Of a DNA stretch of 32,000 nt, positions 5,007 through 20,209 are shown one piece after another (position 1 is the first letter of the stretch; the number at the start of each line of letters is the position of its first letter). This DNA is from Candidatus Saccharimonadota bacterium (GTDB lineage: Bacteria; Patescibacteriota; Gracilibacteria; Absconditabacterales; Absconditicoccaceae). Below the pieces are notes generated by a model that saw only the letters and a list, made by a program, of their open reading frames with translations, did not search any database and was not told where the DNA came from. Both the position numbers and the translations under genes were made by a program. The stretch lies in NCBI GenBank assembly GCA_030429145.1, contig JAUIDC010000001.1, forward strand, positions 90,001-122,000, given 5' to 3'.

Positions 5007-5241
5007 ACTATAACCATTAGAAGTAAATTAATCTATTCTACTAGAATCAAAAGTCGTTGCAACAAACAAAAAAATAGCTAATTTTAGCTATCCTAAGCCA
5101 TTTTTGGAGGCAAAGAGTTTATTTCTGAACTATTTAATATCACAGAAAGAGAATTCAATGAGGAAATGCTGAAACTTTACCACTTTGGCTTAAGTTTGGC
5201 AAAAGCAGGCAATCTAAAAAAATACCACAAGTACTCCTCTT

Positions 5242-5267
5242 TTCTCTCACATGATAGTATATAAACA
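5242..5267. repeat. Copy 1 of a perfect 26-bp direct repeat, tctctcacatgatagtatataaacaa
   Basis: Identical 26-mer at 11742-11767. Both copies lie in AT-rich intergenic DNA. Confidence 0.9.
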
Positions 5268-5366
5268 ATATATAGCTAGATTAATAGTATTTAAATTTAG
5301 TTATATATTTACATTGCAATAGTAGAATAATTTCTATATATGGGAAATACACTAAATTTGTAGAAT

Positions 5367-5591
5367 ATGCATCCAAGTTATCCAGCTCCCAATGGCGCAT
5401 GTGTCAACAATGGGAACTTTAAAGGGCATGACTACTACTTATATGATGAAAATCCTTTTCCTTCTACTACAGAACCATCAGAAGCAGAAAGGAAGGAAGA
5501 TAATCGTTTTTATCTGAAAGTAGGGTTAATTGTACTAGGGGTAATGCTTGCAATAGGCAGTATAATTGCCATAGCATTCCCTCTCTCGTAA
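5367..5591 (+). CDS. Small hypothetical protein with a C-terminal TM anchor
   Basis: MHPSYPAPNGACVNNGNFKGHDYYLYDENPF...FYLKVGLIVLGVMLAIGSIIAIAFPLS. TAA stop, followed by a strong hairpin terminator. Confidence 0.45.
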   Translation: MHPSYPAPNGACVNNGNFKGHDYYLYDENPFPSTTEPSEAERKEDNRFYLKVGLIVLGVMLAIGSIIAIAFPLS

Positions 5592-5610
5592 TTGTATTAT
5601 TGTGGTATTT

Positions 5611-5639
5611 AAAAGCCTACCGTATCTGGTAGGCTTTTA
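5611..5639. terminator. Bidirectional rho-independent terminator between convergent genes
   Basis: aaa-agcctacc-gtatct-ggtaggct-ttt: an 8-bp GC-containing stem flanked by an A-run and a T-run. Confidence 0.7.
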
Positions 5640-5649
5640 GCGTATGTTA

Positions 5650-6690
5650 TTATTTACATGCATTTTCAATAATTGAAAATTTCTTGTTTTTACAATCTAA
5701 TTCGGCTTCAACTCATAAAGGCAGAACAAACATAGGGTCTGTATGTCAAAAGTCCATATTGGTAATTATAGGTAACTTATTAAGTCATAATTCTTTATTA
5801 ATAATCTTTATCAATTGCTCATCATAGTTTCATTGAATATTTGTTGCATAGTCCATTTGAGCTCTTCCTAGAAGAATACCTTTAATTACATGTAAGATAC
5901 CTTGTGAGCCTAAGTTTCTTATAATTCTTTCAAAGTGTGTATCTGACATTTTCTCTTCTGAAGGCTCGAGAAAAAGTATCTTATCTTTCCATTCTTCTAC
6001 AGAAGGTCGGATAGATGTTCATATCATGAAAGGGAATACGTCGATACATCCTCATAGCAGTTTCCCCGTTACTATACCCTCTCCCTGTAACCATCTCCAA
6101 TTAGAAGCCGGAAGAAGGTTTCTTTTCTTGTTTTGATTTTCTGGATTGTTCCATGGAAGAAATTCATTCGTCCATCATTCTTTATTTGGGGCAATTTCTC
6201 CTATAACCTCTGAAGAAAAAATAGTTTTATCGACTGCATCTACCATATATGGGAATAATCATCCATTTTCACCAAACCCCGCCATAATACTCGGTCCATA
6301 GAAGGATACAACACCAGCTTTATAGCAAATAAAGTGACTAATAGTAGTATCAGAGTATCCCACAAATACTTTAGGGTTATTTCTTATAACATCAAAATCT
6401 ATGTATGGAAGTATTCTTATTGATTCTTCTCATCAGATTGTAGAAAATATACCTTTAATGGTCGGGTCTTTAAAAGCATCCATTAAATCTTTAGCTCTTT
6501 CTTCTGGATGCGCATATACCCAATTTGGGTCTTGCATAGTATTATTCATTTCTACTACTTCAACTCAGAATTGCTCTGTTAATTGCTTTTTACCAACCAT
6601 ATATCTGTCTGGCACTGCTCATGGACCACCCCAAGAAAGAGATACTGTTGCTACCCTATCTCCTTTTTTTAAATGTTCAGGTTTTATCAT
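5650..6690 (-). CDS. S66 family serine peptidase (LD-carboxypeptidase / MccF-like), 346 aa
   Basis: MIKPEHLKKGDRVATVSLSWGG..EERAKDLMDAFKDPTIKGIFSTIGGEESIRILPYID...NPKVFVGYSDTTISH (nucleophile Ser in GYSD)...LGGCIDVFPFMIGT...ILFLEPSEE...ITNMDFGHTDPMFVLPLG (His). 9 in-frame TGA, mostly at family Gly positions. The ATG at 6690 overlaps the stop of the upstream gene. TAA stop at 5650-5652. Confidence 0.85.
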
Positions 6691-7946
6691 TCTTTCTTTT
6701 TAGCATTTAAAAAATTAGTTATTGTACTCATTTTCTTATCTACATTATAAGTACTATTGAATTTACATCAATACTGATGAATAGCTCTATAATCAACTTC
6801 TATATTTAGATGATTTGCTAGATTTTTAATACTTTCGTCAGAATTCTCAACAACTTTTCCATGTTTCTCAGAGATAATTTGTGAACTTGCGGACCCGACA
6901 TCAGTTGCAAACACATAACATCAGAAATATAATGCTTCCAAAACAACGCGACAATAGGCTTCTGACCTTGAAGGAATTATGACATAAGCACATTTAACAT
7001 AGATATCTTGTAATTCTTCAATTGGGAGATAGCCCAAAAAAAACACATTTTTATATAATTTCAATTCTTGTACTAAAATTTCAACTTTTTCATCCAATCA
7101 TAAGGATGACCCACATATATAGAAATTAAACTTGTTATCCTTTTCATTTAAGGTTTTTACCAGTTCTGCAAATCTATCAAATCATTTCTCATATGATAAC
7201 CTTCAGACATACAAGATATTATTAGTGTTTTTAGAAGACAATTCATCTGTATTCAAGGGTGGAAGAGAAAGGTCATTATTAATCTCAATAGCTGAACTAT
7301 TAACCAATAACGTGTCTTCTAATATTATCTTATTCTTACAAATAACTAAGTCTGAGTATTGTTTCGTTTCTAAATCTTTTTGCAGAATAACCTTACTATG
7401 AGGCAATTTGAATGTTTCAATTGACTGTAGTTCTTTTTCATTTACATGAATAGTGGAAACTAGTGGTGTTTTAAAGTAATCAGCAAGCATTCTACTTGCA
7501 TCTATAGTAAACCAAGATGTAGGAGTATGAATAAAGTCAAAAGAAATTACAGACAATCATTGTTTGCGTCTTTCAGAGTTAACTTGGGCTATCTCTAATA
7601 AAACATGTTGGAAAAGATTTTGATTATATGCATATAATATCTGTTCTGCTTCAGCATCTGTGCGAGCTTCTACAAAAGCATCATAAAAATCTTTATCAGA
7701 TGAACCAACTGCTCTTTTGATAGTATAATTATATCCATCAAACGATATAGATTGATTATTATACCAGTTACTAGCGTGAACTAATATTTTACATCATTTA
7801 TTGAACGCATAAATATCTTCTTGAGTTGTACTATGACCCGTTCATCGCATATTTTTATTGTTTTTAGAAATTTGAGGATATGGAGATTTTTCCTCTAGCA
7901 GACAATAATCGAATGTTACGTTAATATAATTATACATTATATACAT
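6684..7946 (-). CDS. GT-B fold glycosyltransferase (GT4-like)
   Basis: N-domain FDFIHTPTSWFTIDASRMLADYFKTPLVSTIHV. C-domain GRLSYEKGFDRFAELV...FNFYICGSS...VFFLGYLP..LQDIYVKCAYVIIPSRSEAYCRVVLEALYFGCYVFATDVGS. Several TGA encode Gly. Start is ATG 7946 (or 7937), overlapping the stop of the upstream gene. TAA stop at 6684-6686. Confidence 0.8.
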
Positions 7947-9159
7947 TCGCAAGTAAATCCGTTCCCATTCCTCCAACAATCATTTTCTCTTTCTTATCTG
8001 ACAACAATCTTGCTGACCAATCGACTATTCCTCCATCAAATACATCACACACATCTCCCCTTTCATTTTTTAGAAATCAACTAAATGCTAAGCCCTTATA
8101 ATGACCAACTCACCACATTCTTCCTAAATCAATGGAAATATTTAAATTCAAATCTTTATAAACCTCCTCTAAACTCTGTAGGTGATTTAATATTTTACCT
8201 ATATACTCCATATTAAAATCTATATTATTTTGCTGTAAGATTTCACTCAACTCAGCAATGTCCTTTCATTTGAGTTTACCAGTCAAACCTAGATACTCAT
8301 CTAATTGAGGCTCTTGTGCGAACCCATGCTTAGTTCTATAATCTAATTGATATTTTCTAAACTGATGAGCTTGATTTGCTCATTCTTCTAATGTAGTAAG
8401 TCATTCTTTTTCTTTAAAAAGATATGGAAGTATATCTAAATCAGAGATAGTGACATCTAAAGAGGTAAAGTTTATCTGTCCATCATTTTTTAGATGTTTT
8501 AAAATAGTAAGGTATTTATTTAATAAATCGTATGTGTGTTTTTTTTCAAATCAATAACCTGGCTGAGACCTTCACGCATAACAATTCGCCATTACTTGGA
8601 AATGAGCTTTAGGTTTATGATAAGCATCATTTGCTCAATGAAATGACTGTGTTCTTAAACAAGTTAAAAAACTAGCTAATTTTATAGTTTCATTGTTTTT
8701 TTCTTTCTTTCTCATAACAGAAGCTTCTAAAGCTAACCCCATTGAACCATCTGAGGTAATATCATATCCTCTTATTGTTGTTAATGCTCTTTTCTGACTA
8801 ACATTATTAAGATAGTGCGCTAGTCAAAAAGGGAATACAGGAGAAAGACGAATAAAATCTCGTTCCGGCATATGTTTAAGGATAGTGTTTTCTATATTAT
8901 GCAGTCATCTAATATTTGAAGTGCTTGCTTTAGGAAATCTACTTAATTCATATTGTCAAAGAATAGCTTGAGCATCTGTATTTATACTTCTATTTTCATA
9001 TACATCCAGTAATAGAGAAATTAATGTCTGAGTAGGCAATTGAGCAAGCTTATCTATAATTTCTGTATCCTCTCAAAATGCCTCAACTATCTGCTGAGCA
9101 ACTTTATCTTTTTTAACCTTTCTAGGGGTCTTTTCTCAGTGACTTGGGAGTTTTTCCAT
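7930..9159 (-). CDS. Hypothetical 409-aa protein with a class II aminoacyl-tRNA-synthetase-like (HisRS/HisZ-like) C-terminal signature
   Basis: Continuous frame with 13 in-frame TGA and no TAA/TAG. IDLGRMWGVGHYKGLAFSGFLKNERGDVCDVFDGGIVDWSARLL....MIVGGMGTDLL resembles the LDYYTG-x-xFE ... GGRYD ... GxGxGxxRL region of class IIa enzymes. A possible degenerate motif 2 is LRTQSF...AHFQVMANCYAG. The family call is tentative. Confidence 0.55.
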
Positions 9160-9183
9160 AGTTTATATCTAGTTGCTAAATAA

Positions 9184-9996
9184 TTATGCAGAGAATAGTG
9201 ACCATTGCTCATTCACTGATTTCTTTCTAAAAATAAGCAAACTTGCTCCTAAATACTTATGGTTTTCTGTAAAGAGAGACATTATTCGGAATAGTTTGTA
9301 TTCGGCAGCTTTTTTTTCATCTGCAGATAATTCACTTAATTCAGGTCTGTTAACCATATATCTACAATACTCTAATAGTTTTTTATGGTCTACATGTGCA
9401 TATTCTCCTTCGTATTTATGAAAAAGTTTTAATCCCTGCTCTTCATATGTATCTACCCGGTAATCTATGCCCCACTTTTGAATATTTAAATTCATTAGAT
9501 TATTCATTTCATCTATAATATATTGTGGAGCATCTTTCTTATAATACATCACTACATCTGCTACGAAGCCATCATCCTTACAAACTCTTACCATTTCTGC
9601 AATAGCTTTCTTCTTATCCGGTACAAAAGCTACTCCCCCCGCACTAAATACTAAATTAAATTCAGCATCTGAGAAATCTAAAGATTGAGCGTTCATTACT
9701 TTGTAGCTTACTTGCTCACTCATTTCCTCTTTTGCTGTCAATTCGGTTGCAGTAGTGACCATATTCTCATTAATATCAATACCTATCCCCTTTGCACCTG
9801 TTAACTTAGCTACTTCTCTAGTGCTTGAGCCTGTATTACAAGCTATATGGAGAAATTTTGCATCTGAATGCAAAAATACATTTTTTATCATCTCGGTAAG
9901 CATTTTTTCACCTCCAGGCGCTCTATTAGTCTCTTTAAGAAAAGCCATAAAATCTACATAAGGCATAGTAATGATTTTTTCTACTGCGTTCTGCAT
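9184..9996 (-). CDS. SAM-dependent methyltransferase (270 aa)
   Basis: Intact standard-code ORF. FLHIACNTGSSTREVAKLTGAKGIGIDINENMV (motif I-like) and LVFSAGGVAFVPDKKKAIAEMVRVCKDDGFV (post-II/III). A 5-nt gap to the upstream gene and 24 nt to the downstream gene. Confidence 0.75.
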   Translation of the reverse strand: MQNAVEKIITMPYVDFMAFLKETNRAPGGEKMLTEMIKNVFLHSDAKFLHIACNTGSSTREVAKLTGAKGIGIDINENMVTTATELTAKEEMSEQVSYKVMNAQSLDFSDAEFNLVFSAGGVAFVPDKKKAIAEMVRVCKDDGFVADVVMYYKKDAPQYIIDEMNNLMNLNIQKWGIDYRVDTYEEQGLKLFHKYEGEYAHVDHKKLLEYCRYMVNRPELSELSADEKKAAEYKLFRIMSLFTENHKYLGASLLIFRKKSVNEQWSLFSA

Positions 9997-10001
9997 AAAT
10001 G

Positions 10002-11150
10002 TTAGGGATTAGGGATTAAATGTGTTCTTGGGAATATAGTAGCATGAGTTATCATGGGTTGGTTAGTTAACCAATGCATCAGCCTTTGTCGTCCTACTCC
10101 AAATCCACTCGTAGTCGCATAATTTATTCCATCTCTGGATGAGAGATATGGCAGATAATCTTCTTGAGGCAGATTAAAGATATTTGCTTTTTGTAAGAGT
10201 ACTTCCTTATTTCTTATTCTTTGACCGCTACCAATCACTTCTCTATATCCATGTAATATCATGTCTGCATTTTTAGCTAAAGGATGTCCTTCTATTTCCT
10301 CATCAGCAACATCATGATAGAAGGGAATTTGAAGCATAGGAAAGCTATGAACAATATAATTCCCCCTTAAAATTTCTCCTAATCTTATTTCTTCCCATGA
10401 ACCAAAGTTTTTTAATGAAAACTCCTTGTAAACTTCATCCTTCGTATCATCATATAGGAGATTCAATGCCTCTCTTAAAGATAGCCTTACCATGTTTTTG
10501 TTAATAATATCTTTTTTTTCTTGTAATTGTTCATCAGTAAGAAAGAACTGCAAATCCTCTTGGTTATGTTCCATCACATAACCAATAATAAACTTAAAAA
10601 GGTCTGAAAATATTCAAATATTTTCCTCAAAATTTACCTTCCCTTCAAACTCAATATGCTGAAATTCCGTCAAATGAGAAAAATCAGATTTTTCTTTCCT
10701 AAAACTATTATATATACTGAATACCTCATCTATATTCGCTTCACAGAGAGCTAGTTCTAGATATAGCTGAGAACTTTCTGAGAGAAATATTCTTTTATTG
10801 CTTTCAAACCATTGAGGTATTTCAATAGGCAAGGCATCTGTAGTGTAATTCAATGTTTGTCCTGCATAGACTTCTCATGGTGAAGAAATCATAAGTGTAG
10901 TTATAGGAACATTACACCACTGAGCTTTTCTGTTTATAAAGAAAGTAGTTGTAGCTTGAAAAATTGCATTGTCTAACCTCGCAAGATGATTGAGCATTTG
11001 CACTCTTTTTTCTGAAGAGTTATCTATGGGCTGAATATCTTGGAAGGAAGCAAACTGGATATTTTCTATAGGTGCAAAAATTTTATTTCAACTATAAGAT
11101 ATAGTTTTATTATTATCCAAGTTCGCTTTATAAGGCATACATATTCACAT
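10002..11150 (-). CDS. Class IIb aminoacyl-tRNA synthetase catalytic-core paralog (AsnRS/AspRS/AsnA-like) without a recognisable anticodon-binding domain
   Basis: Motif 1 region FFINRKAQWCNVPITTLMISSPGE. Motif 2 SFRKEKSDFSHLTEFQHIEFEG. Motif 3 TSGFGVGRQRLMHWLTNQPMITHATIFPR. Joins three track ORFs through TGA at 10614 and 10875 (plus others). Start is ATG 11150 or 11138. TAA stop at 10002-10004. Confidence 0.8.
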
Positions 11151-11161
11151 AAGAAATAAAT

Positions 11162-11617
11162 TTATTTTTTATGCTGACGTATTTTACTGGCTAACTCCTC
11201 TAATTCCTCATCCGATTTCTCATAACCTAGAATGGTACTAATATACCCTCTATATTCAGGGAAAAACACTCTTTCCTCTGAACCCATAGGAGTAAATTTC
11301 TCCGTTAATCCATGGAGTGGATAAAGCTTCATATGAGCATGATTAATACCCATTCCTTCCATTACCATTGCCACCCTCTTTACATCTAATGCTTCTTGTA
11401 ATAGCTCTGCAACTTTTTTAGTTGACGATAAATATGCCATATAATCCTTTTCTGGCATATCAAACACATGTGAATCATGGTGCTCCCTAGAAAGCACCAA
11501 AGCCATGCCTTCTGTATTAGGAAATTTGTCTAAAATTGCTACTACATTTTCATCCTCATAGATTTTAGCACCATATTTCTTTCCATCTACTATATCACAA
11601 AAAAGACAGTTTTTCAT
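11162..11617 (-). CDS. HIT (histidine triad) family hydrolase
   Basis: MKNCLFCDIVDGKKYGAKIYEDENVVAILDKFPNTEGMALVLSREH...GMGINHAHMKLYPLH. CxxC-like N-terminus plus a HxHx(K) triad-like motif. First gene of the operon. Confidence 0.75.
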   Translation of the reverse strand: MKNCLFCDIVDGKKYGAKIYEDENVVAILDKFPNTEGMALVLSREHHDSHVFDMPEKDYMAYLSSTKKVAELLQEALDVKRVAMVMEGMGINHAHMKLYPLHGLTEKFTPMGSEERVFFPEYRGYISTILGYEKSDEELEELASKIRQHKK

Positions 11618-11741
11618 CGCAATAAGAAGAAATAATTGGCTTTATAATAAGTGATACGACATCATTTACAAATCCAAAAAAGAATTTATGATAAGTATTG
11701 GTTATCAGGAAAATTCTCAAAAAAACTTATATATAAGTTAG

Positions 11742-11767
11742 TCTCTCACATGATAGTATATAAACAA
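11742..11767. repeat. Copy 2 of the perfect 26-bp direct repeat, tctctcacatgatagtatataaacaa
   Basis: Identical to 5242-5267 and exactly 6500 bp away. It lies 125 nt upstream (minus sense) of the HIT gene start. Confidence 0.9.
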
Positions 11768-11787
11768 ATTAGTATATATACTATTTC

Positions 11788-12450
11788 TTAAACTAAGAAT
11801 GAATTAGCAATTCTTTCTAATGCCTCATTATCAACTTTAGTTATTTTATGTAATTCACTATCATCTAAATTAGCTAATATTTGTTCTGCAAGAGCTCATT
11901 TATCTCTTAATCTTAAATCTGCTTTAAATTCAACATCTAATTCCTCATTTTCTATATATTTATCCATTTGACTTAGCATGCCTTTATTCAGTTTATTTAA
12001 CTTTATTAATGTTTCATAATTTAGCTTATAGTGAGACTTATGTAGTAAGTATATAAAATCAGGGTCTAATAAATCTTTTCCACCTTTGTATTTTTCTATA
12101 GTATTCATTAGTGCTCTATATTTCCCGGTTAACTTACCTTTACATTGTGGACATGCATATACATCATAGAAATCCTTTATGCTTCCTACTTCTTCGTTAA
12201 AAAGTATGTTAAAAAATCTTGAGGTAAGAGTGAAAAAGTAAATATGAGTTTCATCTATACTTACTATAAGCCACATGTGTCATTTGTCTCAAATGGCATT
12301 CGCAATATCTGGGTTTCCTCCCCTATTAATAAATTCTTGGGTACTCATACCATTTTTTAGAAAAACCCTATATATCTTTCCAACTTCAAAAATATCTACA
12401 GTCGACTTTGGCTTTAATCAAGAAAGTAAGTTTTCAAAAGGCTTATCCAT
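11788..12450 (-). CDS. Hypothetical 220-aa protein, candidate toxin partner of the adjacent Panacea-domain antitoxin
   Basis: MDKPFENLLSGLKPKSTVDIFEVGKIYRVFLKNG...GDKGHMWLIVSIDETHIYFFTLTS...CPQCKG...LHKSHYKLNY.... Extends track ORF 11896..12276 on both sides via TGA. The ATG at 12450 lies 11 nt after the stop of the upstream gene. The N-terminal pattern only weakly recalls PemK/MazF-type barrels. Confidence 0.55.
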
Positions 12451-12461
12451 TATTGTTTTAT

Positions 12462-12995
12462 TTAAATACTGAGATTATCTGCAAATCAGAAATAAATAGG
12501 TCTAAACATTTCTGTATTCAGATATCATGTTTCCTTGTGAGACTTATCTACAATCTCTTTAGTCCCTAACCTACCCAATTTATCTTTTACTTCCTCTACA
12601 ATAGAAATTTCTTTTTCGGATAAATGTTCTGCAAGGTTAATGGATTGCTTACATATAATTGCATATTTAATATATCATTCTTTCGTTTTCTTCTTATCGA
12701 TGCCTAAATAAGAACTATATAACTCATATTTCTTTTGCTCATCTTCATCTTCGATATCTGTTAATGAAACTCCTACTTTTTCAGTAATAATAAAGTCTAT
12801 TCTAGATTTAATAGATAGCGGAACGGGACCATAAGGTAATTTATAATAAATTTCTCCTGTAATAGAGACTTCTGTGCGTTTATAAAAAAGGAAATCAATA
12901 TAAAATAGTAATTTATATAATTTGGTTTGATATAAATCAGACAAATTCTCTGCTAAGTAGCAGATGATTGCTAAGTCTTTAGAAATCTCTCCCAT
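12462..12995 (-). CDS. Panacea (DUF4065, SocA/GepA-like) domain protein; probable antitoxin
   Basis: MGEISKDLAIICYLAENLSDLYQTKLYKLLFYIDFLFYKRTEVSITGEIYYKLPYGPVP matches the T-KL-KLLYY...G.P......Y....GPV signature of DUF4065. Continues through TGA at 12675 to TAA at 12462-12464. Confidence 0.7.
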
Positions 12996-13167
12996 GTATT
13001 AAGCCTAATATTTGAAAATAAATTTTTATTGGCTTTGCTTAAAGTAAAAATAAGTTAGATATTCAGTCGCGGAATGCAAGATAAACTTCATAAGCAATAT
13101 GGTATGGATTTTAAGAATAATTTTATATAAAATCATATAAATTTTAAATAAATCATTTTAGATAAAA

Positions 13168-13647
13168 ATGGAAGCATTAATAAGTGCTCTCACATGATGA
13201 TTAATAGGCTCTTTGGTGATTTATCACTTCACGCTTAAGAAAGACAGATTTTTAAATTTACAGCAAAAAGGAGAGCAATTACTACAATATATATACGAAT
13301 ACCAAGACATCCTAATGCTTGTAGATAGGGAACGCGAGAAGTTGGATGATATTAAGGATGACATTGTAAGTATAGAAGAAAAACGAGATAAAGCATATAA
13401 AGAATATAATTTGATTAATGACAGCAAACAACGTTTAAGGGAAAAAATATGGACGTTAATTAATATATACTTCCCGAGTTTAGCAGATGATTTTAGGGAG
13501 TATACTCATATTGAACTATCTCATACTCCGGATAAAGAAAAAAACGTCCAAACGATGCACTCAAGAGAAAATAAATTATCAGATATATCTCATAAATTAA
13601 TCAAGATAATCAATAAGGAAAGAGTATTTGGGATATGGAAAATTTAA
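13168..13647 (+). CDS. N-terminally membrane-anchored coiled-coil protein (159 aa)
   Basis: With ATG 13168 and two TGA=Gly, the N-terminus reads MEALISALTGGLIGSLVIYHF (TM-like). The rest is Lys/Glu/Asp-rich and heptad-like (REREKLDDIKDDIVSIEEKRDKAYKEY). Its 3' end overlaps the KAP gene start by 13 nt. Confidence 0.55.
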
Positions 13648-15980
13648 ATGAAACAATTATTACATATCTTATTATCATGCAGTATATCCCTGACAATCCT
13701 TTAGACAGCTATCAATATGACGAATTAAGAAGAGAGAACTTCATTAATTCACTTCTAAAGCTCATACAATATGGATGAAATGCACAAGACAATAAAAGCT
13801 CTGTTGTTTTAGGAATTGAATGAAAATGGGGAGATGGCAAGACTACTATTTTGAAATTTCTAGAAGAAAAATTAGAAGAGGAAGATACCATAGAAGTAAT
13901 GTGGTTCGAGCCATGGCTTTACAATAAAGATGTTGATATACATACTAAGTTTTTTGATGAATTAGCAAGTACATTATGAAGTAGTAAAAAAATAAAACTT
14001 GATGAAACACAAATACGTCAAATTGAACAATATAGCAAAATAATTTGACCTTTTCAGGACCCCACATGGGATACTGTAAAAGGCAAGGTTGGGAACTATC
14101 TAGTAGACGGGTTTATCACTATAGGCGTATTTGCCTGTACGGTCGCAACAAATATCACTTGGAAAGCAGTGTCATTTATATTAACATTTTTAATAACCTC
14201 TCGAAGAAAAATTATTTCTACTCGAGTAAATATTAAAATAACTAGAATTTTGAAAAATAAGGTAGATTTAGAACAACAGAGAGACAATATTTCTCATATT
14301 CTTTCATCTAAAGAAAAGAAATTAATCGTTATAATTGATGATATTGATAGGTTAGAAAGTGAACAATTAAAAGTTATTCTACAAATTGTCAAATCAAGCG
14401 CGAACTTTCCAAATGTCATATATATATTAAGTTATGATAGAGAAATTGTAGAAAATGTAATAAGTAATTTATATGGAAAAGAGAACAATTATCTTGATAA
14501 AATTATCCAGTTACCTGTCTCTCTTCCTCTTGTAAGAGAAGAAATAATAACAGAAATCTTGGATAAACACTTAGAACAATTTCTAGAATATATAAAATCT
14601 TTTTGACGAAAGACTTTAACGAAAGAAGAGACTAGTGAGCTAACAAATTTATTTGTAAAGGGCTATAAATTTTTCTTTAAAAACATTAGAGACATTAAAA
14701 AATACATTAACTTACTATATGTAGATTTTCTTACATTACAAAGTAAATACTCGTGACCGGAAATAAATATAATCGATTTTTTAATTATAGAAGCTTTTAA
14801 ACTATTTACCAAGCCTCTTTTCTATTTTCTATACTATCAAAAGAACAACTTGTTTTCATATAGAGGTAAAGATGACGCCCTAACCCCTCTACAAGAAATT
14901 TTTGATGATTTTTTAAAAAATAGAAATTTATTAGAATACAAAGAACTTCTATATGAACTGTTCCCTCAATTTAATAAACGCAACTATGGCATTGAAACAA
15001 CTGAAGAAATACAAAATAGAGTTTGCTCAAAAAAAAGTTTCCATAAGTATTTTGAGTTAGACATATTTTGAACTCCAAATAGTGAGTTTATAGAATTTAG
15101 GGAAAGAATAAAAAAATGACAAATGTCCCAAGCAATTAAAATATTTAAAAAAGTTGAAAATGAGGGATGAGCCTATGAGTTTATTGATAGAATTGGGAAA
15201 GTACTACTAATTGACAATAAAGAAACGCTCTCAGAAGTCGAAATAGTGGCTTTATTGCTTTTTTTAATCAACAATGAAAAAAATATAGATTTCAAACCTC
15301 TTGGTTTGTTTGACAGCTTGTATGGACCAGAAGTTATAATAATGAGAAGTATCTATCAATCCATGCTTAGATATTATGATAACAAAGATATCTTTCTCGA
15401 AATAATGTATGCTCTTATAGAAGGTGCAGATGATATTTGGCAAGTATGCAGATACTTTCGCAATCATTTACGAGATGAAAAAAATGAGGAAAGAACAAAA
15501 ATCGAAGATATTAAGTTACAAGAAAGATTGGGGGATGACATCAATTCTATATTAGATAAAATCAATCTTAAGATTAAAAACCTTCTTAAGAGTGGGAAAA
15601 TATTAGACCAAATCTCTCGAAGATTTATTTTATACTTCTATGCAACAATTTCTGGAAAACAGAAACAAGTACTTAATCGGGTAAAGAATATTTCACAAAA
15701 TATAACTACACTAAATAAATTTTATAAATCATATTTTACTAAATCCCACTCTCAAACAATGCCAATGTTTAGCTGAGACAAGATGGGACCTTTAAAAGAA
15801 AAAATATCCTTTGATATCAAAGGGTTAACAGAATGGCGCAAGTTATGAAAAATAGAAAAAGACCTTTCGAAATTATATTCTCATAATTTACTTACTGAAC
15901 ATGAATTTCAACTTGCTCAAAAAACTATTGAAGCATTTAAGAACAACAAAGAATATGATGATGATAATTATGATGATTAG
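13635..15980 (+). CDS. KAP family P-loop NTPase (781 aa) with two TM helices inserted in the NTPase domain
   Basis: Walker A VVLGIEGKWGDGKTTIL (first Gly = TGA at 13821-13823). Inserted TM pair LVDGFITIGVFACTVATNITWKAVSFILTFLITS. Walker B/KAP signature LIVIIDDIDRLESEQLKVILQIVK...NVIYILSYDREIV. Joins four track ORFs in one frame. TAG stop at 15978-15980. Confidence 0.85.
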
Positions 15981-16260
15981 ACTGCAAAACATAATTATAT
16001 AAAAAACAAAAGTAAAGCCAGTTCACAAGCCATATTACTCAATACCTCAAATCTTAAAATAATCAGTTTCGCAGTTTTTTAATATATTCTATTAAATAAT
16101 TAAAATATAAGGTCATAAAAGCATGTCATTATTTGGGCTTTTTCTTATATCTACAATTATAAATATCCATTTTCTTACAAATTTTTCTTATACTTTGTCT
16201 AAAAGTTGTATAGTATAGATTTTGGTTTGATTTTGGCTTACAAAACCTTACTTTCCTTAG

Positions 16261-16392
16261 TGCGACACTCTTATATTTATACCACACTATCCTTGAATAA
16301 TAAAAGGACGGTTTGCGATTTTCTCCGCTTACTGTCCTCACGGGCGTGTGGTGTATAAGGGTGTCGCAACCTGAGAGGTCGTAAGCCGTCCC
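16261..16392 (+). ncRNA. Unassigned GC-rich structured element (long imperfect hairpin with a competing downstream pairing); strand and function unknown
   Basis: gtgcgacact/cttata/ccacac (16261-16288) pairs with gtgtgg/tataag/ggtgtcgcaac (16347-16371). Inner hairpin aggacggt (16306-16313) / actgtcct (16332-16339). Alternatively, ggacggtttgcg (16307-16318) pairs with cgtaagccgtcc (16381-16392). It sits in a 450-nt non-coding gap upstream of the 16434/16563 CDS. Confidence 0.4.
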
Positions 16393-16562
16393 TATATTAT
16401 CATCATAGTGCTTATGACTGAAGGTTAAATGACATGCCTTCTTTTTTATTTTTTAGAAAAAGCACTATGTGGACATATAGCTTAGGATTGTGGGCATTAC
16501 TCACCTTTCTTTTATTAATGATTTGGAGTTTCCCTACCGGAGAAAAAGGATTGAGAGAGCCT

Positions 16563-17309
16563 ATGAAGTTAAAAGAGAATTTAAGAAACCGAAAGAAAAA
16601 CTGGATAAGAACTTTTCTTTCTATCATACTACTCCTCTCTCTTTGAAAAACTGTAATTTGACTAACTGCTAAATCTATAAACGACACTTATCATTCTATA
16701 GCCAGTAGTTTTTATTCTAATCCTATAATTACCATACATAACCTATCTGGTGATAAAATCAACTTATGAACTGATAATATTTTTCAAATTTTACTTACTG
16801 TTAATCACACCTCGACAGTTCTAATAAATAACAACTCTATTCCCCTATCTACTTGATTAATAATTTATACGGGAGATGCCTATTGATATACATGAATGAA
16901 CTTAGATATTATTGCAAAAAATAAATATAAACACACCGAAACACAAGTTCTCATCATGAGAAATTTTACGCAGAAAGAGATAGAAGAACAAAAGGTGAGA
17001 TTGGCTCAGCAACAGAAAGATGAAGCAGAAAGACAAGCTACCTTAGCACAAAGGGAAAAAATAAGAGCAAGCTTAGAAACCAAGTATAAAAATCTCTTCA
17101 CGAGAGGTTTATATCAATATGAGATAGAAGACAAATTATTTGATATGGGCTTTAAACAGACATCACAATGATACGGAGAAGCTCCTGATGGCTCTACCCA
17201 AGTTATTACTTACTATTGAAAAGATGAAGAAGGTTTCTTTATAGTTATTTCTCTTCAAGCTGGTTATTCCTCAAGTAAGTATTGGTATACTGTAGAAGTA
17301 AAAGAATAA
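16563..17309 (+). CDS. Hypothetical secreted/membrane-anchored protein (alternative start 16434)
   Basis: One frame is open 16434-17309 under code 25, joining track ORFs 16434..16646 and 16896..17171. MKLKENLRNRKKNWIRTFLSIILLLSLGKTVIG is signal/anchor-like. This is followed by a beta-rich segment, a charged coiled-coil (QKVRLAQQQKDEAERQATLAQREK) and a C-terminal YWYTVEVKE. TAA stop at 17307-17309. Confidence 0.5.
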
Positions 17310-17427
17310 AACTCTTGACATATTTACCTCTGAGACAAAAATGTCATTGAAAATGAAACGCCCCAAATATAAATAGATGTCATTCATATTTTAATAATAA
17401 TGAATGACCCTTATTCAACCCGCCGAT

Positions 17428-17607
17428 ATGGCAATGGTTGAGCTCGCTAGGGATAAGTTGTGAGATGTGATTAAAGATAAAAATGATATGGAGGTAGTAG
17501 AGTTCATTAACCAATGTAGAAGAATGGCAAATTTTGCTATTGATTGCGCAGAGCAGAAATTAGAAACTGGTTTATTATCTCAATCACAATCATGACTGGA
17601 GAATTAG
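17428..17607 (+). CDS. Small ORF (59 aa) overlapping the recombinase start; possible accessory/directionality factor
   Basis: MAMVELARDKLGDVIKDKNDMEVVEFINQCRRMANFAIDCAEQKLETGLLSQSQSGLEN (2 TGA=Gly). It overlaps the ATG at 17592 by 16 nt. No recognisable motif. Confidence 0.25.
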
Positions 17608-19199
17608 CAGTAGTATATAGCAGAATATCCTCAACAACACAAGAAAGCTGAGGTGGATTAAATAGTCAGGCTGTCGCATGTAGGCAATATTGTGACCATC
17701 ACAAATATGAAGTAATCAAAGAATTTAAGGATGTCATTTCGGGAGGAGAAGAAAATAGACCCGGGCTGAATGAACTCTTGAATTTTATAGATGAATACAA
17801 TAGGTCTCATAGCAAAAAAATTACTATTTTTGTTACCCATAGTGTTAATAGAATAGCAAGAAGCTTTGAAGTACATTTAAGTCTAACGACTAAACTACGC
17901 GTAAAAGGCATCAGAATTGAAACTGTAGAAATGAAGTTTGAAGAGACCCCTATCTGAAAACTCATAGAATGAATAATGGCATTACAATCTGAGTACTTCA
18001 GAAATGAGAATACAGAAAGAGTAATTTCCAGACAAGAAGCAAGATTATTGGATGGCTACCGGTCATTCGATTATCCTATTGGCTATGTAACAACTAATGC
18101 TCCAGCTGGAGGCAAATTACTTATTCCAGATGAGCCCAATGCATCTATCATAAAAGAAGCCCTTGAAGGTTATGCCTTTGGAAGATTTAATAGCATCTCA
18201 GAAGTCACAGAATTTTTGACAAAGAGAAATTTAGATTTAAGCAGGACTTCTAAGAAAAGGAAGAAAGATAGCAATATTATTCACAATTCTCTTACTGCAA
18301 GAATATTAAAACAAATACTTTATACGGGTTATATTCAATATCATAAAACCACATATAATAAAAAAGGATTAATCAAAAAACAGTGGAACATTCCTTTAAG
18401 AAAAGGCAAACATGAGTGAATAATTGATTTATCCACTTATTATACTATTCAAGAAAAACTAATTGGAAAAAGACCTTACGAAAAAGATATAAAGAAACAA
18501 AATAATGATTTCCCATTAAGGTGATACTTAGTATGTGATTGTTGCAACTTAAAATTTAGTTCCGGTCTTTCAAGAAGCGGAAGCAAGAAGCAAATACCCT
18601 ATTATCAATATAATAAAATCTGCCAAAACAAAGGAAAATCAATTAATGCAAACCACCTACACCATGAATTTGAGCATCTCATTAAAAGTCTAAAGCCAGA
18701 TAATAATTTCTTAGATTTTATGAAAATAATTATTCAATCAGAATACGAAAAGAGAAATAAAGATAAAACCATTAGTAAACAGCAATTACAAAGAAAACTT
18801 AGAGAATTAGATAAAGAAATAGATAATCTCATTAAAACCTTAGCTACAACAAACCTTCCTTTAACTAAGCAGAGAATAAGCCATAAGATTGAAGAAGCAG
18901 AGATGAAAAAACTACAAATGGAAGACGAAATTAATTGAACATCCGGCGATACGCTTCCTAAACAAGTTATTGATATAGCATGCTCAGTATTAGAAGACCC
19001 TTATTATATACGAGAGGGTGGATATATAGAGCAGAAACAAGCTTTAATAAATATTTTGTTCAGTAAAAAAATTCCAATCAATAAATCGACTGGAACTTTC
19101 TGAACACTGCCATTAAACAGTTTCTACCTATACTCTTTTAACAATTCAAAGTCTAAATTACAAACATCTGGAGGTGACGAGAGTCGAACTCGTGTCTAG
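17592..19199 (+). CDS. Large serine recombinase (integrase), 535 aa
   Basis: Resolvase-type catalytic N-terminus AVVYSRISSTTQESGGGLNSQ...PGLNELL...IFVTHSVNRIARS. Recombinase domain ...YTGYIQYH.... Zn-ribbon-like CDCCNLKF...YYQYNKIC, then a coiled-coil tail (LQRKLRELDKEIDNLIKTL). Joins track ORFs 17976..18419 and 18720..18938 via TGA. TAG stop at 19197-19199, inside ssrA (antisense). Confidence 0.85.
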
Positions 19200-19516
19200 A
19201 AGTCATGAATAAAGCCTTACTACCATCATAGTCAGTATATTATTCCACAAGGGCTATCCTTGGCCTACGGACAGGCATGATACTTTAAGGGTTGGGTTGG
19301 CACAAGGCCAATTTCCTGCTCAAGCGCCTTGAGTCTAGCAGGAGTCGGGTCTCAAGGTTAAGGCGTTAACTAGGCAGCGTATGCGTAGTTGAACGCAGCA
19401 AGTCTCATGTTAGAGTTTGCATTTTGTGGGTGAACGATTCTTTTATCCTCGGTACGCTCATCGAGCAATGGCTAGATTTAGTCATGGTGTACTCCTATCA
19501 AAACCAGCACACCCCC
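19169..19516 (-). ncRNA. ssrA: tmRNA (SsrA), about 348 nt, CCA not encoded
   Basis: 5' GGGGGTGTGCTGGTTTTGATAGG... and 3' ...ACGAG-TTCGACT-CTCGT-CACCTCC-A. The acceptor stem GGGGGTG/CACCTCC has the G3:U70 alanine identity pair, and there is a T-arm with a TTCGAnT loop. The tag ORF resumes at GCA (19420): ANSNMRLAAFNYAYAA, then TAG (to 19370). Confidence 0.85.
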
Positions 19517-19531: not shown

Positions 19532-19568
19532 ACTATTTTTGATACATTTTCCATACCATATACAACTA

Positions 19569-19886
19569 TCACGCAAGAGCAAGTTCCTTGACTCTCTTAG
19601 GAATTTGAGCTAATTTTTTGCTTTCTTCTTTGTCGAGACTTAATTGATAAGTGTCATACATTTGCTGAAGCCCAAGCCATAGTTCGGAAGATGTACCGAA
19701 TGCCGCTCCGATACGAGCAGCGATCCTTGGAGTGACATTTCTGCGCTCTCTCAAAATATTATTCACTTCCGACTTATCTATGCCCAAAATATCAGCAAAT
19801 TGTTTTTGCGACCACCCTCTTACTGCTATTTCCTCACGAATATATTCACCGGGATGAAAAGCCATTGGCACTCTACTAGTAGACAT
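19569..19886 (-). CDS. higA: HigA-family antitoxin (Xre-type HTH)
   Basis: HPGEYIREEIAVRGWSQKQFADILGIDKSEVNNILRERRNVTPRIAARIGAAFGTSSELWLGLQQMYD is the classic HigA/VapI HTH pattern. Intact standard-code ORF. Confidence 0.85.
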   Translation of the reverse strand: MSTSRVPMAFHPGEYIREEIAVRGWSQKQFADILGIDKSEVNNILRERRNVTPRIAARIGAAFGTSSELWLGLQQMYDTYQLSLDKEESKKLAQIPKRVKELALA

Positions 19887-19912
19887 TGTCAGGATAATAA
19901 ATTGTTAAAAAA

Positions 19913-20209
19913 TTACTGATAATGATTATTAATTTCTATTATTCATACGACATGTATTTCTTTCGTTTGGTCTAGCGTAAAGATCAATCTTCGAGATCTA
20001 TTTAATCTTATACTCCATTGTCCTTTGCGATCAGCAGCAAGTCTTTCACAATGCAACCCACCAATAGCATGTAGATCACTTATATTATACGCTTTCATAA
20101 GAAAGTTTACTCGCTTAATGTAACTCCTGACTATATCGGGATGAAATCTTTTAGAGTATCACTCTCTATAAAGCTCTTCCAGTTTTTGGTCCAGAAAAAC
20201 GACCTGCAT
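19913..20209 (-). CDS. higB: HigB-type toxin (RelE/ParE superfamily, 'killer protein')
   Basis: MQVVFLDQKLEELYREGYSKRFHPDIVRSYIKRVNFLMKAYNISDLHAIGGLHCERLAADRKGQWSIRLNRSRRLIFTLDQTKEIHVVGIIEINNHYQ (2 TGA=Gly). The LHxExL..DRKGQWSIRxN..xRLxF pattern is typical of HigB. It lies 26 nt upstream of higA. Confidence 0.8.

What the first reader, a model, noticed from the sequence alone, without database searches (positions are those of the whole stretch)
17592..19516. Large serine recombinase gene terminates inside (antisense to) the 3' end of ssrA: an island integrated at tmRNA by a serine rather than a tyrosine integrase
The tmRNA gene (minus strand, 19516-19169) is complete, with a G3:U70 acceptor stem, a T-arm and the tag ANSNMRLAAFNYAYAA. 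The 535-aa serine recombinase ORF (plus strand) ends at TAG 19197-19199. Its last roughly 10 codons (..TSGGDESRTRV) are therefore the reverse complement of the tmRNA T-arm and acceptor 3' strand, a 31-nt overlap.

The DNA to the left is very AT-rich and carries TA/defence-type cargo. Islands at ssrA are well known, but they normally use tyrosine integrases and duplicate the ssrA 3' end. Here the recombinase is a large serine type, and its coding sequence runs across the likely crossover region. Excision would therefore change the integrase C-terminus, or the element itself supplies the functional ssrA 3' end.
Basis: partly seen in the sequence, partly recalled or inferred. Interest (0 to 1): 0.7.

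Follow-up and report, generated by a model that had tools for sequence, protein, structure and literature searches.

The report
Serine-integrase island split across ssrA end
A 14-kb mobile island sits at the very last bases of the tmRNA gene, put there by a large serine integrase whose own gene spans the attachment site, so integration cuts off and swaps the enzyme's tail; the same design recurs in relatives at tRNA and tmRNA genes across several bacterial phyla.

Summary
The 535-aa recombinase ORF exists only if TGA is read as Gly (code 25, Absconditabacteria/SR1).

The tmRNA gene (19169-19516, minus) is complete. The ORF (17592-19199, plus) reads 31 nt into its 3' end.

- **Boundaries.** The island is 14,064 bp, bounded by TGGAGG at 5105-5110 and 19169-19174.
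- **Split gene.** There is no displaced ssrA fragment. The left end instead carries the displaced 3' end of the integrase gene. Joining 19170 to 5107 restores an in-frame 578-aa protein. Its extra tail is homologous to the C-termini of unsplit relatives.
- **Relatives.** The same split organisation occurs at five other Absconditabacterial ssrA loci, each with different cargo. It also occurs in distant relatives at tRNA genes in Proteobacteria.
- **Prevalence.** About 26 of 30 related recombinases in reference genomes read into a convergent tRNA or tmRNA gene.
- **Site architecture.** The crossover maps to tDNA nucleotides 72-73. The T-loop GAAC lies 15 nt from it in attB and 20 nt in attP, the 5-bp offset typical of serine integrases.

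The papers I could search say serine integrases are not known to target tRNA genes. I rate this a new variant of a known kind, of high interest.

The parts
5068..5091 (-). Terminator-like hairpin (AUAGCUA-AAAU-UAGCUAU) followed by U7 on the ssrA strand. Proposed to be the native ssrA terminator, now displaced 14 kb from the gene.
   Evidence: Sequence; fold gives a 7-9 bp stem, -10.2 kcal/mol overall, z only -1.1. Analogous hairpin plus T-run lies immediately host-side of attL in L001 and L002. The tool's own terminator scan needs at least 3 GC pairs and does not list it.
5080..5104 (.). B arm: the host half-site of the original attB, i.e. DNA that lay just downstream of ssrA.
   Evidence: Position relative to the core. 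GC content shifts here.
5105..5110 (.). attL core TGGAGG; proposed crossover dinucleotide TG at 5105-5106.
   Evidence: It is the only TGGAGG upstream of ssrA on this strand that lies outside the integrase region. Joining here restores the integrase frame.
5107..5131 (+). P' arm of attP, with GAAC at 5127-5130, 20 nt after the central TG.
   Evidence: GAAC lies 20 nt from TG in 8 of 8 P' arms and in 3 of 3 unsplit attP forms. GAGTTTATTTCTGAAC is shared with L009 but read in a different frame there.
5105..5264 (+). Displaced 3' fragment of the integrase gene. It encodes ..GKEFISELFNITEREFNEEMLKLYHFGLSLAKAGNLKKYHKYSSFLSHDSI, with stop TAA at 5262-5264.
   Evidence: Homologous to the C-terminal tails of unsplit homologs P0014 (z 11.3, 0 of 2000 shuffles) and P0013 (z 9.4). 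It is 77% identical to the displaced fragment in L009 (E 1.6e-19). pN/pS is 0.17 against L009.
5650..11617 (-). Cargo operon: S66 LD-carboxypeptidase (5650-6690), GT4 glycosyltransferase (6684-7979), unknown 409-aa protein (7930-9159), SAM methyltransferase (9184-9996), class II aaRS-like protein (10002-11150), HIT protein (11162-11617).
   Evidence: Pfam searches. ORFs called with code 25.
11788..12995 (-). Cargo: unknown 220-aa protein (11788-12450) and SocA/Panacea-domain protein (12462-12995).
   Evidence: Pfam PF13274, E 2.4e-18.
13168..17309 (+). Cargo: unknown 159-aa protein (13168-13647), PifA-like KAP-family P-loop NTPase (13635-15980), unknown ORF (16434-17309).
   Evidence: Pfam KAP_NTPase 1.3e-42. 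PADLOC PifA 2e-50.
17428..17607 (+). Small conserved ORF (59 aa) overlapping the integrase start. Candidate directionality factor or regulator.
   Evidence: No Pfam hit. Homologous small ORFs sit in the same position in L046/L009, L001 and L002 (z 13-18). L003, L004 and L045 carry an HTH_17 excisionase-type gene there instead.
17592..19199 (+). Large serine integrase gene, integrated form: 535 aa under code 25. The last 9-10 codons are encoded by ssrA antisense.
   Evidence: An AlphaFold model of the unsplit homolog P0014 matches the SPbeta, Bxb1, PhiC31 and LI integrase structures.
19144..19168 (+). P arm of attP, lying inside the integrase 3' coding region.
   Evidence: Position relative to the core. 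TTTC/TTC sits near -24..-21, mirroring the GAAC of P' (read by eye).
19169..19174 (.). attR core TGGAGG. The central TG at 19169-19170 is the complement of tmRNA A73 and C72.
19171..19195 (.). B' arm: the ssrA acceptor 3' strand and T-arm. GAAC (antisense of G53-T54-Psi55-C56) lies at 19186-19189, 15 nt after the central TG.
   Evidence: Published 5-bp attB/attP offset in PMC3783163.
19169..19516 (-). ssrA (tmRNA) gene, intact. CCA is not encoded.

Best explanation
Window 5105-19174 is a 14,064-bp integrative genomic island. It was inserted by its own large serine integrase at the extreme 3' end of the host tmRNA gene.

The element's attP lies inside the 3' part of the integrase gene. The crossover dinucleotide is TG on the integrase strand, which corresponds to tmRNA nucleotides C72-A73, inside a short shared core (TGGAGG here, TGGA across the subfamily). 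ssrA stays intact because only its last few nucleotides are exchanged, and they are exchanged for identical ones.

Integration splits the integrase gene. The body (17592-19170) stays next to ssrA, reads on into the antisense of the acceptor and T-arm, and picks up an arbitrary 9-residue tail and a stop codon. The last 50 or so codons, which encode a conserved C-terminal module, end up 14 kb away at the other end of the island (5107-5264). Excision would rejoin them into a 578-aa protein.

The right-hand attB half-site is the tDNA acceptor and T-arm. Its invariant GT-Psi-C box (GAAC on this strand) sits 5 bp closer to the crossover than the matching GAAC in the element's P' arm. That is the arrangement expected for zinc-ribbon-domain motifs of serine integrases.

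Shown in silico: the boundaries, the split gene, homology of the displaced fragment, the motif spacing and the recurrence in relatives. Inferred: that recombination actually occurs at TG, that the zinc-ribbon domain reads GAAC, and that the tail swap changes integrase activity.
For: 1. The tmRNA gene and the ORF overlap are confirmed.

2. Joining the integrase at the core to 5107 onward keeps the frame open for 50 more codons. The added peptide is homologous to the C-termini of unsplit homologs: P0014 z 11.3 and P0013 z 9.4, 0 of 2000 shuffles each.

3. Displaced tail fragments lie 8-14 kb upstream on the same strand in all five other ssrA-linked Absconditabacterial loci: L009/L046, L010, L003, L001, L002. 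Joining at TG gives in-frame open ORFs of 571-602 aa in 6 of 6 loci.

4. The window and L009 fragments differ by 10 synonymous and 7 non-synonymous changes, pN/pS 0.17.

5. GAAC lies 15 nt from TG in 8 of 8 B' arms and 20 nt from it in 8 of 8 P' arms and 3 of 3 unsplit attP forms. This includes two proteobacterial loci. It matches the published 5-bp shift of the zinc-ribbon motif between attP and attB (PMC3783163).

6. The conserved P' DNA GAGTTTATTTCTGAAC is read in different frames in the window and in L009. It is therefore conserved as a DNA site, not as coding sequence.

7. A hairpin plus U-run on the ssrA strand lies just outside attL in the window, L001 and L002.

8. GC content drops from 0.38-0.40 in the flanks to 0.31 in the island.

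9. Cargo differs at every locus. No tyrosine recombinase is present in the island.

10. About 26 of 30 homologs from several phyla read into a convergent tRNA or tmRNA gene. At least 90 of 115 database homologs have tDNA-antisense tails. The control is 0 of 68.

11. An AlphaFold model of the unsplit homolog P0014 has the full serine-integrase architecture up to about residue 504. The split point falls just after it. Foldseek matches SPbeta, Bxb1, PhiC31 and LI integrases at E 1e-21 to 1e-9.
Against: No empty attB and no circular junction from this species could be retrieved. The first metagenome scan found nothing, the second returned unrelated tmRNAs, and exact-protein look-ups failed. Excision is therefore inferred, not observed.

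The shared core is only 6 nt. The terminator-like hairpin is not better than shuffled sequence (z -1.1) and the tool's terminator scan misses it.

The exact crossover dinucleotide is inferred from motif symmetry and from the 4-nt common core TGGA; GG or GA cannot be excluded.

The P arm mirror motif is only approximate and is shifted by 1 nt in the window.

The C-terminal module is modelled with pLDDT below 50, so nothing structural can be said about it.

The island may be composite. A perfect 26-nt repeat at 5243-5268 and 11742-11767 is unexplained.

The status of the contigs that hold unsplit copies (L044, L045, L005, L019) is unknown: they could be circular, plasmid or chromosomal.
Confidence: 0.88

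Rival explanations
1. The recombinase is a domesticated or decaying remnant that became fixed next to ssrA. The island no longer moves and the overlap has no present function.
For: No excised form or empty site was found for this species. Truncated remnants of the family do exist: the Tritonibacter locus L168 keeps only the C-terminal half of the gene. The tail in L005 looks decayed.
Against: The integrase ORF is intact, and so is the displaced fragment, which is open for 50 codons in 31% GC DNA. The fragment evolves under purifying selection (pN/pS 0.17), although it can only be part of the protein after excision. Six loci keep the frame across the join. Cargo and island length differ between close relatives that share the same ssrA. 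Unsplit copies exist.
Confidence: 0.07
2. This is a classical tDNA island: the crossover lies deeper inside ssrA, the element supplies a functional replacement 3' end, and a displaced ssrA fragment lies outside the window.
For: This is the rule for tyrosine-integrase islands (PMC4383910). The window reaches only 19 kb to the left.
Against: No ssrA-like fragment was found in the window. The integrase frame is restored only by a join inside TGGA, in 6 of 6 loci. The displaced integrase fragment marks the far end at 5105. Relatives with different islands share the same host T-arm. Identity between the two ends stops after 4-6 nt.
Confidence: 0.03
3. The overlap is an accident of gene packing in a small genome. 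The recombinase acts elsewhere, for example as an invertase or resolvase, and some other mechanism brought in the AT-rich DNA.
For: The genome is compact and genes overlap often. Serine recombinases have many roles.
Against: Relatives show convergent read-through into tRNA or tmRNA genes in about 26 of 30 cases across phyla, against 0 of 68 control tmRNA genes. The motif spacing is constant. Displaced gene fragments mark the island ends.
Confidence: 0.02

Closest known systems
Large serine integrases of temperate phages and integrative elements (LI/A118, Bxb1, PhiC31, SPbeta SprA, TP901-1, CcrAB of SCCmec)
   Same: Domain architecture: resolvase catalytic domain, recombinase domain, zinc ribbon with coiled-coil. 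Short att sites with very little attP/attB identity. The outer half-site motif lies 5 bp closer to the centre in attB than in attP (PMC3783163). From my own knowledge, CcrAB also targets the 3' end of a conserved gene (rlmH/orfX) without inactivating it.
   Different: Characterised serine integrases target protein-coding genes or intergenic DNA, and their attP lies outside the integrase ORF. Here the target is the last nucleotides of a tRNA or tmRNA gene and attP lies inside the integrase ORF. The enzyme therefore exists in two C-terminal forms. Sequence identity to phage and plasmid integrases is at most 27%.
Tyrosine-integrase genomic islands in tRNA/tmRNA genes (Islander-type; e.g. CP4-57 at E. 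coli ssrA)
   Same: The same target class, the 3' part of tDNAs. The target gene stays functional, cargo is variable and includes defence genes, and tandem arrays occur (L009).
   Different: The recombinase family is unrelated. No long tDNA direct repeat is present, only 4-9 nt. The crossover is at nucleotides 72-73 rather than in the anticodon or T-loop sublocations. [quoted passage not shown] A 2026 survey still reports that serine-integrase proviruses prefer coding sequences (PMC13626063).
Myxococcus phage Mx8 IntP/IntX and fusellovirus SSV1 integrase (attP inside the int gene)
   Same: attP lies within the integrase coding sequence. Integration gives the gene a new 3' end (Mx8) or partitions it (SSV) (PMC4383910; PMC6070905). 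From my own knowledge, Mx8 also integrates at the 3' end of a tRNA gene (tRNA-Asp).
   Different: Both are tyrosine recombinases with a different chemistry and site architecture. I found no serine integrase described with this organisation.

Membership tests
tmRNA (ssrA, Rfam RF00023) | Covariance-model match above the gathering score, with tRNA-like acceptor and T-arm and a tag reading frame | tested here: met
   70 bits against a gathering score of 47, full-length. ARAGORN finds the tag ANSNMRLAAFNYAYAA.
Large serine recombinase / integrase | N-terminal resolvase-type catalytic domain | tested here: met
   PF00239, E 4e-22, residues 6-150. A profile of the family matches the TP901-1 integrase catalytic domain 3bvp.
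Large serine recombinase / integrase | C-terminal recombinase domain plus Cys4 zinc ribbon with inserted coiled-coil | tested here: met
   PF07508, E 5.8e-08. Invariant C315, C317, C318 and C344. PF13408 is recorded in more distant homologs. The AlphaFold model of homolog P0014 shows a beta ribbon plus long helices 358-438, and Foldseek matches SPbeta, Bxb1, PhiC31 and LI integrases. The structural test was run on the homolog, not on the window protein.
Large serine recombinase / integrase | Short att sites with minimal identity between attP and attB around a 2-bp crossover | tested here: met
   attL and attR share 6 nt here and 4 nt (TGGA) across six loci. The dinucleotide itself is inferred.
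Large serine recombinase / integrase | Outer (zinc-ribbon) motif 5 bp closer to the centre in attB than in attP half-sites | tested here: met
   GAAC lies at 15 nt in B' and at 20 nt in P' in 8 of 8 site pairs, and at 20 nt in 3 of 3 unsplit attP forms. Criterion taken from PMC3783163.
Large serine recombinase / integrase | Catalyses attP x attB recombination; excision needs a directionality factor | not testable with these tools
   Only a conserved small ORF (17428-17607) is available as a candidate factor.
Islander-type tDNA genomic island | [quoted passage not shown] | tested here: met
Islander-type tDNA genomic island | Tyrosine-family integrase on board | tested here: not met
   No tyrosine recombinase domain appears in any island ORF searched. 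The only recombinase is serine-type.
Islander-type tDNA genomic island | Displaced tDNA 3' fragment forming a direct repeat at the far end | tested here: not met
   No ssrA fragment beyond the 6-nt core.
Mx8/SSV-type 'attP inside int' elements | Integration alters or splits the integrase ORF | tested here: met
   (in silico).
Mx8/SSV-type 'attP inside int' elements | Tyrosine recombinase | tested here: not met

The most novel reading that the evidence does not exclude
This is one member of a large, phylum-spanning and so far undescribed clade of large serine integrases that specialise in tRNA and tmRNA genes.

Two things would follow. First, the zinc-ribbon domain reads the universal GT-Psi-C box at a fixed distance from nucleotides 72-73. 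That would explain why the clade has moved among at least nine tRNA species and tmRNA. Second, placing attP inside the gene makes the enzyme a sensor of its own state. The full-length form, with the conserved C-terminal module, can be made only from the excised circle. The integrated element makes a truncated form with a junk tail. This would give a built-in control of directionality or stability, possibly reinforced by ssrA or tRNA read-through transcription antisense to the integrase gene.
Probability: 0.4. Interest if true: 0.88.

Novelty: new variant of a known kind. Interest (0 to 1): 0.82.

Why it matters
The accepted rule is that tRNA and tmRNA genes are targets of tyrosine integrases, while serine integrases hit coding sequences (PMC4383910, PMC5704250, PMC13626063). 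This locus and its relatives break that rule with one consistent and readable architecture.

**Biology.**
- It adds a second, mechanistically independent route by which tDNAs become island hot-spots, including in candidate-phyla-radiation bacteria with recoded genomes.
- It explains many odd recombinase C-termini in the databases, such as ..GFEP.., ..RFELPTP.. and ..SRTRV. These are antisense tRNA.
- It shows that island finders which look for a displaced tDNA fragment, or for a tyrosine integrase, will miss these elements.

**Mechanism.** It offers a natural experiment on serine-integrase regulation, because there are two isoforms that depend on integration state.

**Technology.** Serine integrases need no host factors. 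A clade whose attB is built on the universally conserved T-arm could provide ready-made landing sites in almost any bacterium.

Tried and rejected
- **Displaced ssrA 3' fragment.** Short-word BLAST and a repeat search over the window found none.
- **Exact-sequence look-ups** of P0001 and of the adjacent HigA, to find conspecific contigs: nothing on record.
- **Metagenome scan for this species' ssrA 3' end:** 0 hits. A degenerate pattern returned 120 mostly unrelated tmRNA genes. They were useful only as a control: 0 of 68 have an adjacent homolog.
- **Viral contig scan:** one distant 26% hit. Phage and plasmid collections held nothing above 27% identity. No sequenced phage or plasmid shows the attP form.
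- **Tritonibacter chromid hit.** I followed it in the hope of finding a strain pair with and without the island. It is only a truncated remnant.
- **A second TGGAGG in L009 (5213).** It lies inside a 1253-aa ORF and is a chance match. The real attL is at about 3160.
- **Automated core finding by 14-mer identity** failed for four loci and was replaced by inspection.
- **PDB sequence searches** matched only the catalytic domain.
The unsplit homolog P0014 was modelled instead, but its tail has pLDDT below 50, so the module's structure and contacts remain unknown.
- **Small ORF upstream of the integrase:** no Pfam family, and no similarity to the HTH_17 genes of the sister sub-clade.
- **Mageeney et al. 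2020 (TIGER)** is not held in the library. I cannot exclude that serine-integrase islands in tDNAs are listed in that paper or in the TIGER database.
Full report
**1. What is at the coordinates**

ARAGORN finds a tmRNA gene at 19169-19516 on the minus strand, with tag ANSNMRLAAFNYAYAA. Rfam's tmRNA model matches 19166-19516 over its full length at 70 bits, against a gathering score of 47.

The recombinase ORF does not exist under the standard bacterial code. There the region falls into pieces of 59, 147 and 72 aa. The frame 17592-19199 is interrupted only by TGA. Read with TGA as Gly it gives a 535-aa protein with Pfam Resolvase (4e-22) and Recombinase (5.8e-08) domains.

The TGA positions align with Gly in homologs. 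NCBI translates the relative P0003 with Gly under 'Candidatus Absconditabacterales'. Host genes such as SecA and RluD also carry in-frame TGA. The window therefore comes from a code-25 Absconditabacterium (SR1).

The ORF stops at TAG 19197-19199, 31 nt inside ssrA. Its last residues, GGDESRTRV, are the antisense of the acceptor 3' strand and T-arm.

**2. The overlap is a family trait, not an accident**

The protein search returned about 20 Absconditabacterial homologs at 40-60% identity and hundreds at about 30%. Their C-termini look like antisense tRNA..LEMMGFEPMS....GDDGNRTRV..GGDGGSRTHV.

Fetching their contigs confirmed it. L001, L002, L003, L009/L046 and L010 each have the ORF reading 32-65 nt into a convergent tmRNA gene. 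L004 reads 42 nt into tRNA-Ser.

A scan of one genome per GTDB species returned 35 loci. They come from Alpha- and Gammaproteobacteria, Saccharibacteria, Paceibacterota, Nomurabacteria and Verrucomicrobia. About 26 of the 30 that can be evaluated have the ORF reading 13-173 nt into a convergent tRNA gene (Ala, Val, Thr, Ser, Tyr, Leu, Arg or Met) or tmRNA gene.

Among 115 full-length database homologs, at least 90 carry recognisable tDNA-antisense tails. As a control, none of 68 unrelated metagenomic tmRNA genes with at least 1.7 kb of downstream DNA has such a neighbour.

**3. Finding the other end of the island**

No second copy of the ssrA 3' end exists in the window.

A few homologs lack the tDNA-type tail: P0011, P0013, P0014, P0017, P0003/P0006 and L019. 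They diverge from the tDNA-linked ones exactly at the tDNA terminus, after ..LE, which is encoded by (C/T)TGGAG. This suggested that the crossover lies in TGGAG and that the unsplit proteins show what follows in attP.

TGGAGG occurs only once upstream of ssrA, on the same strand and outside the integrase region. That site is 5105-5110, in an intergenic gap at the GC-content step.

Joining the integrase through the core to 5111 onward keeps the frame open for 50 more codons, to TAA at 5262-5264. The result is a 578-aa protein whose new tail is KEFISELFNITEREFNEEMLKLYHFGLSLAKAGNLKKYHKYSSFLSHDSI. That tail is homologous to the C-termini of the unsplit homologs: P0014 z 11.3 and P0013 z 9.4, with 0 of 2000 shuffles reaching the score.

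The island is therefore 14,064 bp. It is 30.8% GC, against 37.8% and 39.9% in the flanks.

**4. The same split in relatives**

A tblastn search with the tails finds a displaced fragment 8-14 kb upstream, on the same strand, in every other ssrA-linked locus:
- L009/L046 at 3158-3319 (77% identical to the window's fragment, E 1.6e-19)
- L010 at 1789-1929
- L003 at 3071-3211
- L001 at 2002-2106
- L002 at 676-855

Joining at the central TG gives open, in-frame ORFs of 571-602 aa in 6 of 6 loci. All end in the module [DE]-F-x-E-E-h-x-K-F-Y-Y-F-G-x-x-L-x-K-x-G-N-L..K-Y.

The window and L009 fragments differ by 10 synonymous and 7 non-synonymous changes, pN/pS 0.17. The fragment is therefore maintained as coding sequence, even though it can only be translated as part of the integrase after excision.

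In the distant clade, L022 (tRNA-Leu, Gammaproteobacteria) has a displaced tail 3.7 kb upstream (E 3e-4 against the P0051 tail). L017 (tRNA-Thr) has a weaker one at 5.1 kb.

Island lengths range from 3.7 to 14 kb, and cargo differs at every locus. L009 holds a tandem array: a second, 25%-identical serine integrase whose ORF runs across the attL core of the first island.

**5. Site anatomy**

The six Absconditabacterial attL/attR pairs share only TGGA; the window pair shares TGGAGG. In the proteobacterial loci, where CCA is encoded, the shared core is TGGTGC.

I anchored all sites on the TG that is the complement of tDNA nucleotides A73 and C72. With that anchor, GAAC lies 15 nt away in all 8 B' arms. 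There it is the antisense of G53-T54-Psi55-C56 of the T-loop. GAAC lies 20 nt away in all 8 P' arms and in 3 of 3 unsplit attP forms.

A 5-bp inward shift of the zinc-ribbon-domain motif in attB relative to attP is what the LI integrase structure and mutagenesis established for serine integrases (PMC3783163).

The window and L009 share GAGTTTATTTCTGAAC in the P' arm, but they read it in different frames. A 1-nt indel further on restores the common frame for the conserved module. This stretch is therefore conserved as DNA.

Where the discriminator is G (tRNA-Ser in L004, and the attP of L019), the central dinucleotide is CG instead of TG. This is my own reading of the sequences printed.

The P arm shows an approximate mirror (TTTC at -24..-21 in L003 and L009, shifted by 1 nt in the window). 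This too is read by eye.

Immediately host-side of attL there is a hairpin plus U7 on the ssrA strand (5068-5091). It is plausibly the native ssrA terminator, and similar hairpins sit in the same place in L001 and L002. On its own this is weak evidence: z is -1.1 and the tool's terminator scan does not list it.

**6. The protein**

An AlphaFold model of the unsplit homolog P0014 has mean pLDDT 78. It shows the catalytic domain, helix E, the recombinase domain, a zinc ribbon with a long coiled-coil (358-438) and a final helical and beta region ending near residue 504. The tail from 505 onward is below pLDDT 50.

Foldseek matches full-length SPbeta integrase complexes (E 1e-21), Bxb1, PhiC31 and LI integrase.

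The split point thus falls just after the canonical fold. The integrated form keeps every standard domain and loses only the clade-specific C-terminal module.

A conserved small ORF (17428-17607) overlaps the integrase start. It recurs in L009, L001 and L002 (z 13-18). The sister sub-clade has an HTH_17 excisionase-type gene in that position. Either could be a directionality factor. This is inference.

**7. How it most likely works**

Shown in silico:
- attP lies inside the integrase gene.
- attB is the 3' terminus of ssrA.
- The two ends share 4-6 nt.
- Integration leaves ssrA intact, displaces its terminator and splits the integrase gene.
- Excision would restore a longer protein.

Inferred:
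- The crossover is at TG.
- The zinc-ribbon domain reads GAAC.
- The C-terminal module matters for activity. This is supported only by its conservation.
- The truncated and full-length forms differ in activity, as reported for Mx8 IntP (PMC6070905).
- ssrA read-through may run antisense into the integrase gene.

**8. Comparison with what is known**

The enzyme is a member of the large serine integrases; every testable defining feature is met.

The element works like a tDNA island but fails two defining features of the Islander class. It has no tyrosine integrase and no displaced tDNA fragment.

It works like Mx8 and SSV in having attP inside the integrase gene, but those are tyrosine recombinases.

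[quoted passage not shown] Searches combining serine integrase or recombinase with tmRNA, tRNA or tDNA found no description of this organisation. The TIGER 2020 paper could not be read, so prior listing in that resource cannot be excluded.

**9. Verdict**

I rate it a new variant of a known kind, with interest 0.82. Confidence in the anatomy and integration model is 0.88. The functional meaning of the tail swap remains open.

Noticed in passing
window 1-32000: The whole window uses TGA as a sense codon (Gly, code 25). Island and host genes all carry in-frame TGA. The public protein collection holds this integrase (P0001) translated with Trp at those positions, i.e. under code 4.
   Followed up: partly
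window 5243-5268 and 11742-11767: A perfect 26-nt direct repeat, TCTCTCACATGATAGTATATAAACAA, with unrelated flanks. The first copy is the end of the displaced integrase fragment (..SFLSHDSI, stop). The second lies between the HIT gene and the next cargo gene. It may be the remnant of an older tandem-island junction, or a regulatory site. It has no match in any fetched locus.
   Followed up: partly
window 5650-11617 (minus strand): The cargo operon combines an S66 LD-carboxypeptidase, a GT4 glycosyltransferase, a methyltransferase, a class II aminoacyl-tRNA-synthetase-like protein and a HIT-family protein. From my own knowledge, S66 (MccF-like) and HIT proteins serve as immunity genes in clusters for aminoacyl-nucleotide antibiotics. 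An S66 homolog (55% identical) also lies near the integrase in L005/L006.
   Followed up: no
window 13635-15980: The KAP-family NTPase matches the PADLOC PifA model (E 2e-50) over nearly its full length. It is a candidate abortive-infection gene in a candidate-phyla-radiation bacterium.
   Followed up: partly
L009 1492-3216 and 3160-3165: Tandem array at ssrA. A second serine integrase (575 aa, 25% identical, with Resolvase and Zn_ribbon_recom domains) reads across the attL core of the first island. Serine integrases are not expected to use hybrid sites, so how such arrays form is unclear.
   Followed up: partly
window 956-1501 vs L009 13048-13566: The homolog (70% identical) of a gene at the far left of the window lies directly beside tRNA-Leu in L009. 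The two genomes therefore differ by a rearrangement with one breakpoint next to the ssrA-higBA-tRNA-Leu block.
   Followed up: no
window 19566-20209: A HigB/HigA toxin-antitoxin pair lies on the host side of ssrA. It is conserved (73-84% identical) at the same place in L009, so it is not part of the island.
   Followed up: partly
L005/L006 10001-11662 and 18079-20928: This integrase copy has the attP-type junction (GAAC at 20 nt), but after ..LETIGAYLNTY its tail no longer matches the conserved module. No tmRNA gene is nearby. A second serine recombinase and a Rep_1 gene lie downstream. The status of this locus is unresolved; it could be a decayed tandem array or a plasmid.
   Followed up: partly
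L168 20016-20804 (Tritonibacter mobilis p2, NZ_CP110385.1): A truncated family member, with only the C-terminal half left, whose ORF reads right through tRNA-Thr(GGT). It is a decayed island remnant in a cultured Roseobacter-group strain.
   Followed up: partly
proteins P0021-P0120: Many database 'recombinase family protein' entries end in peptides such as GFEPPTP, RFELPTPRFVVWCSIQLSY or RLELPRVLPHSDLNAARLPIPP. These are translated antisense tRNA rather than real protein sequence. They could be used to predict each element's target tRNA from the protein alone.
   Followed up: no
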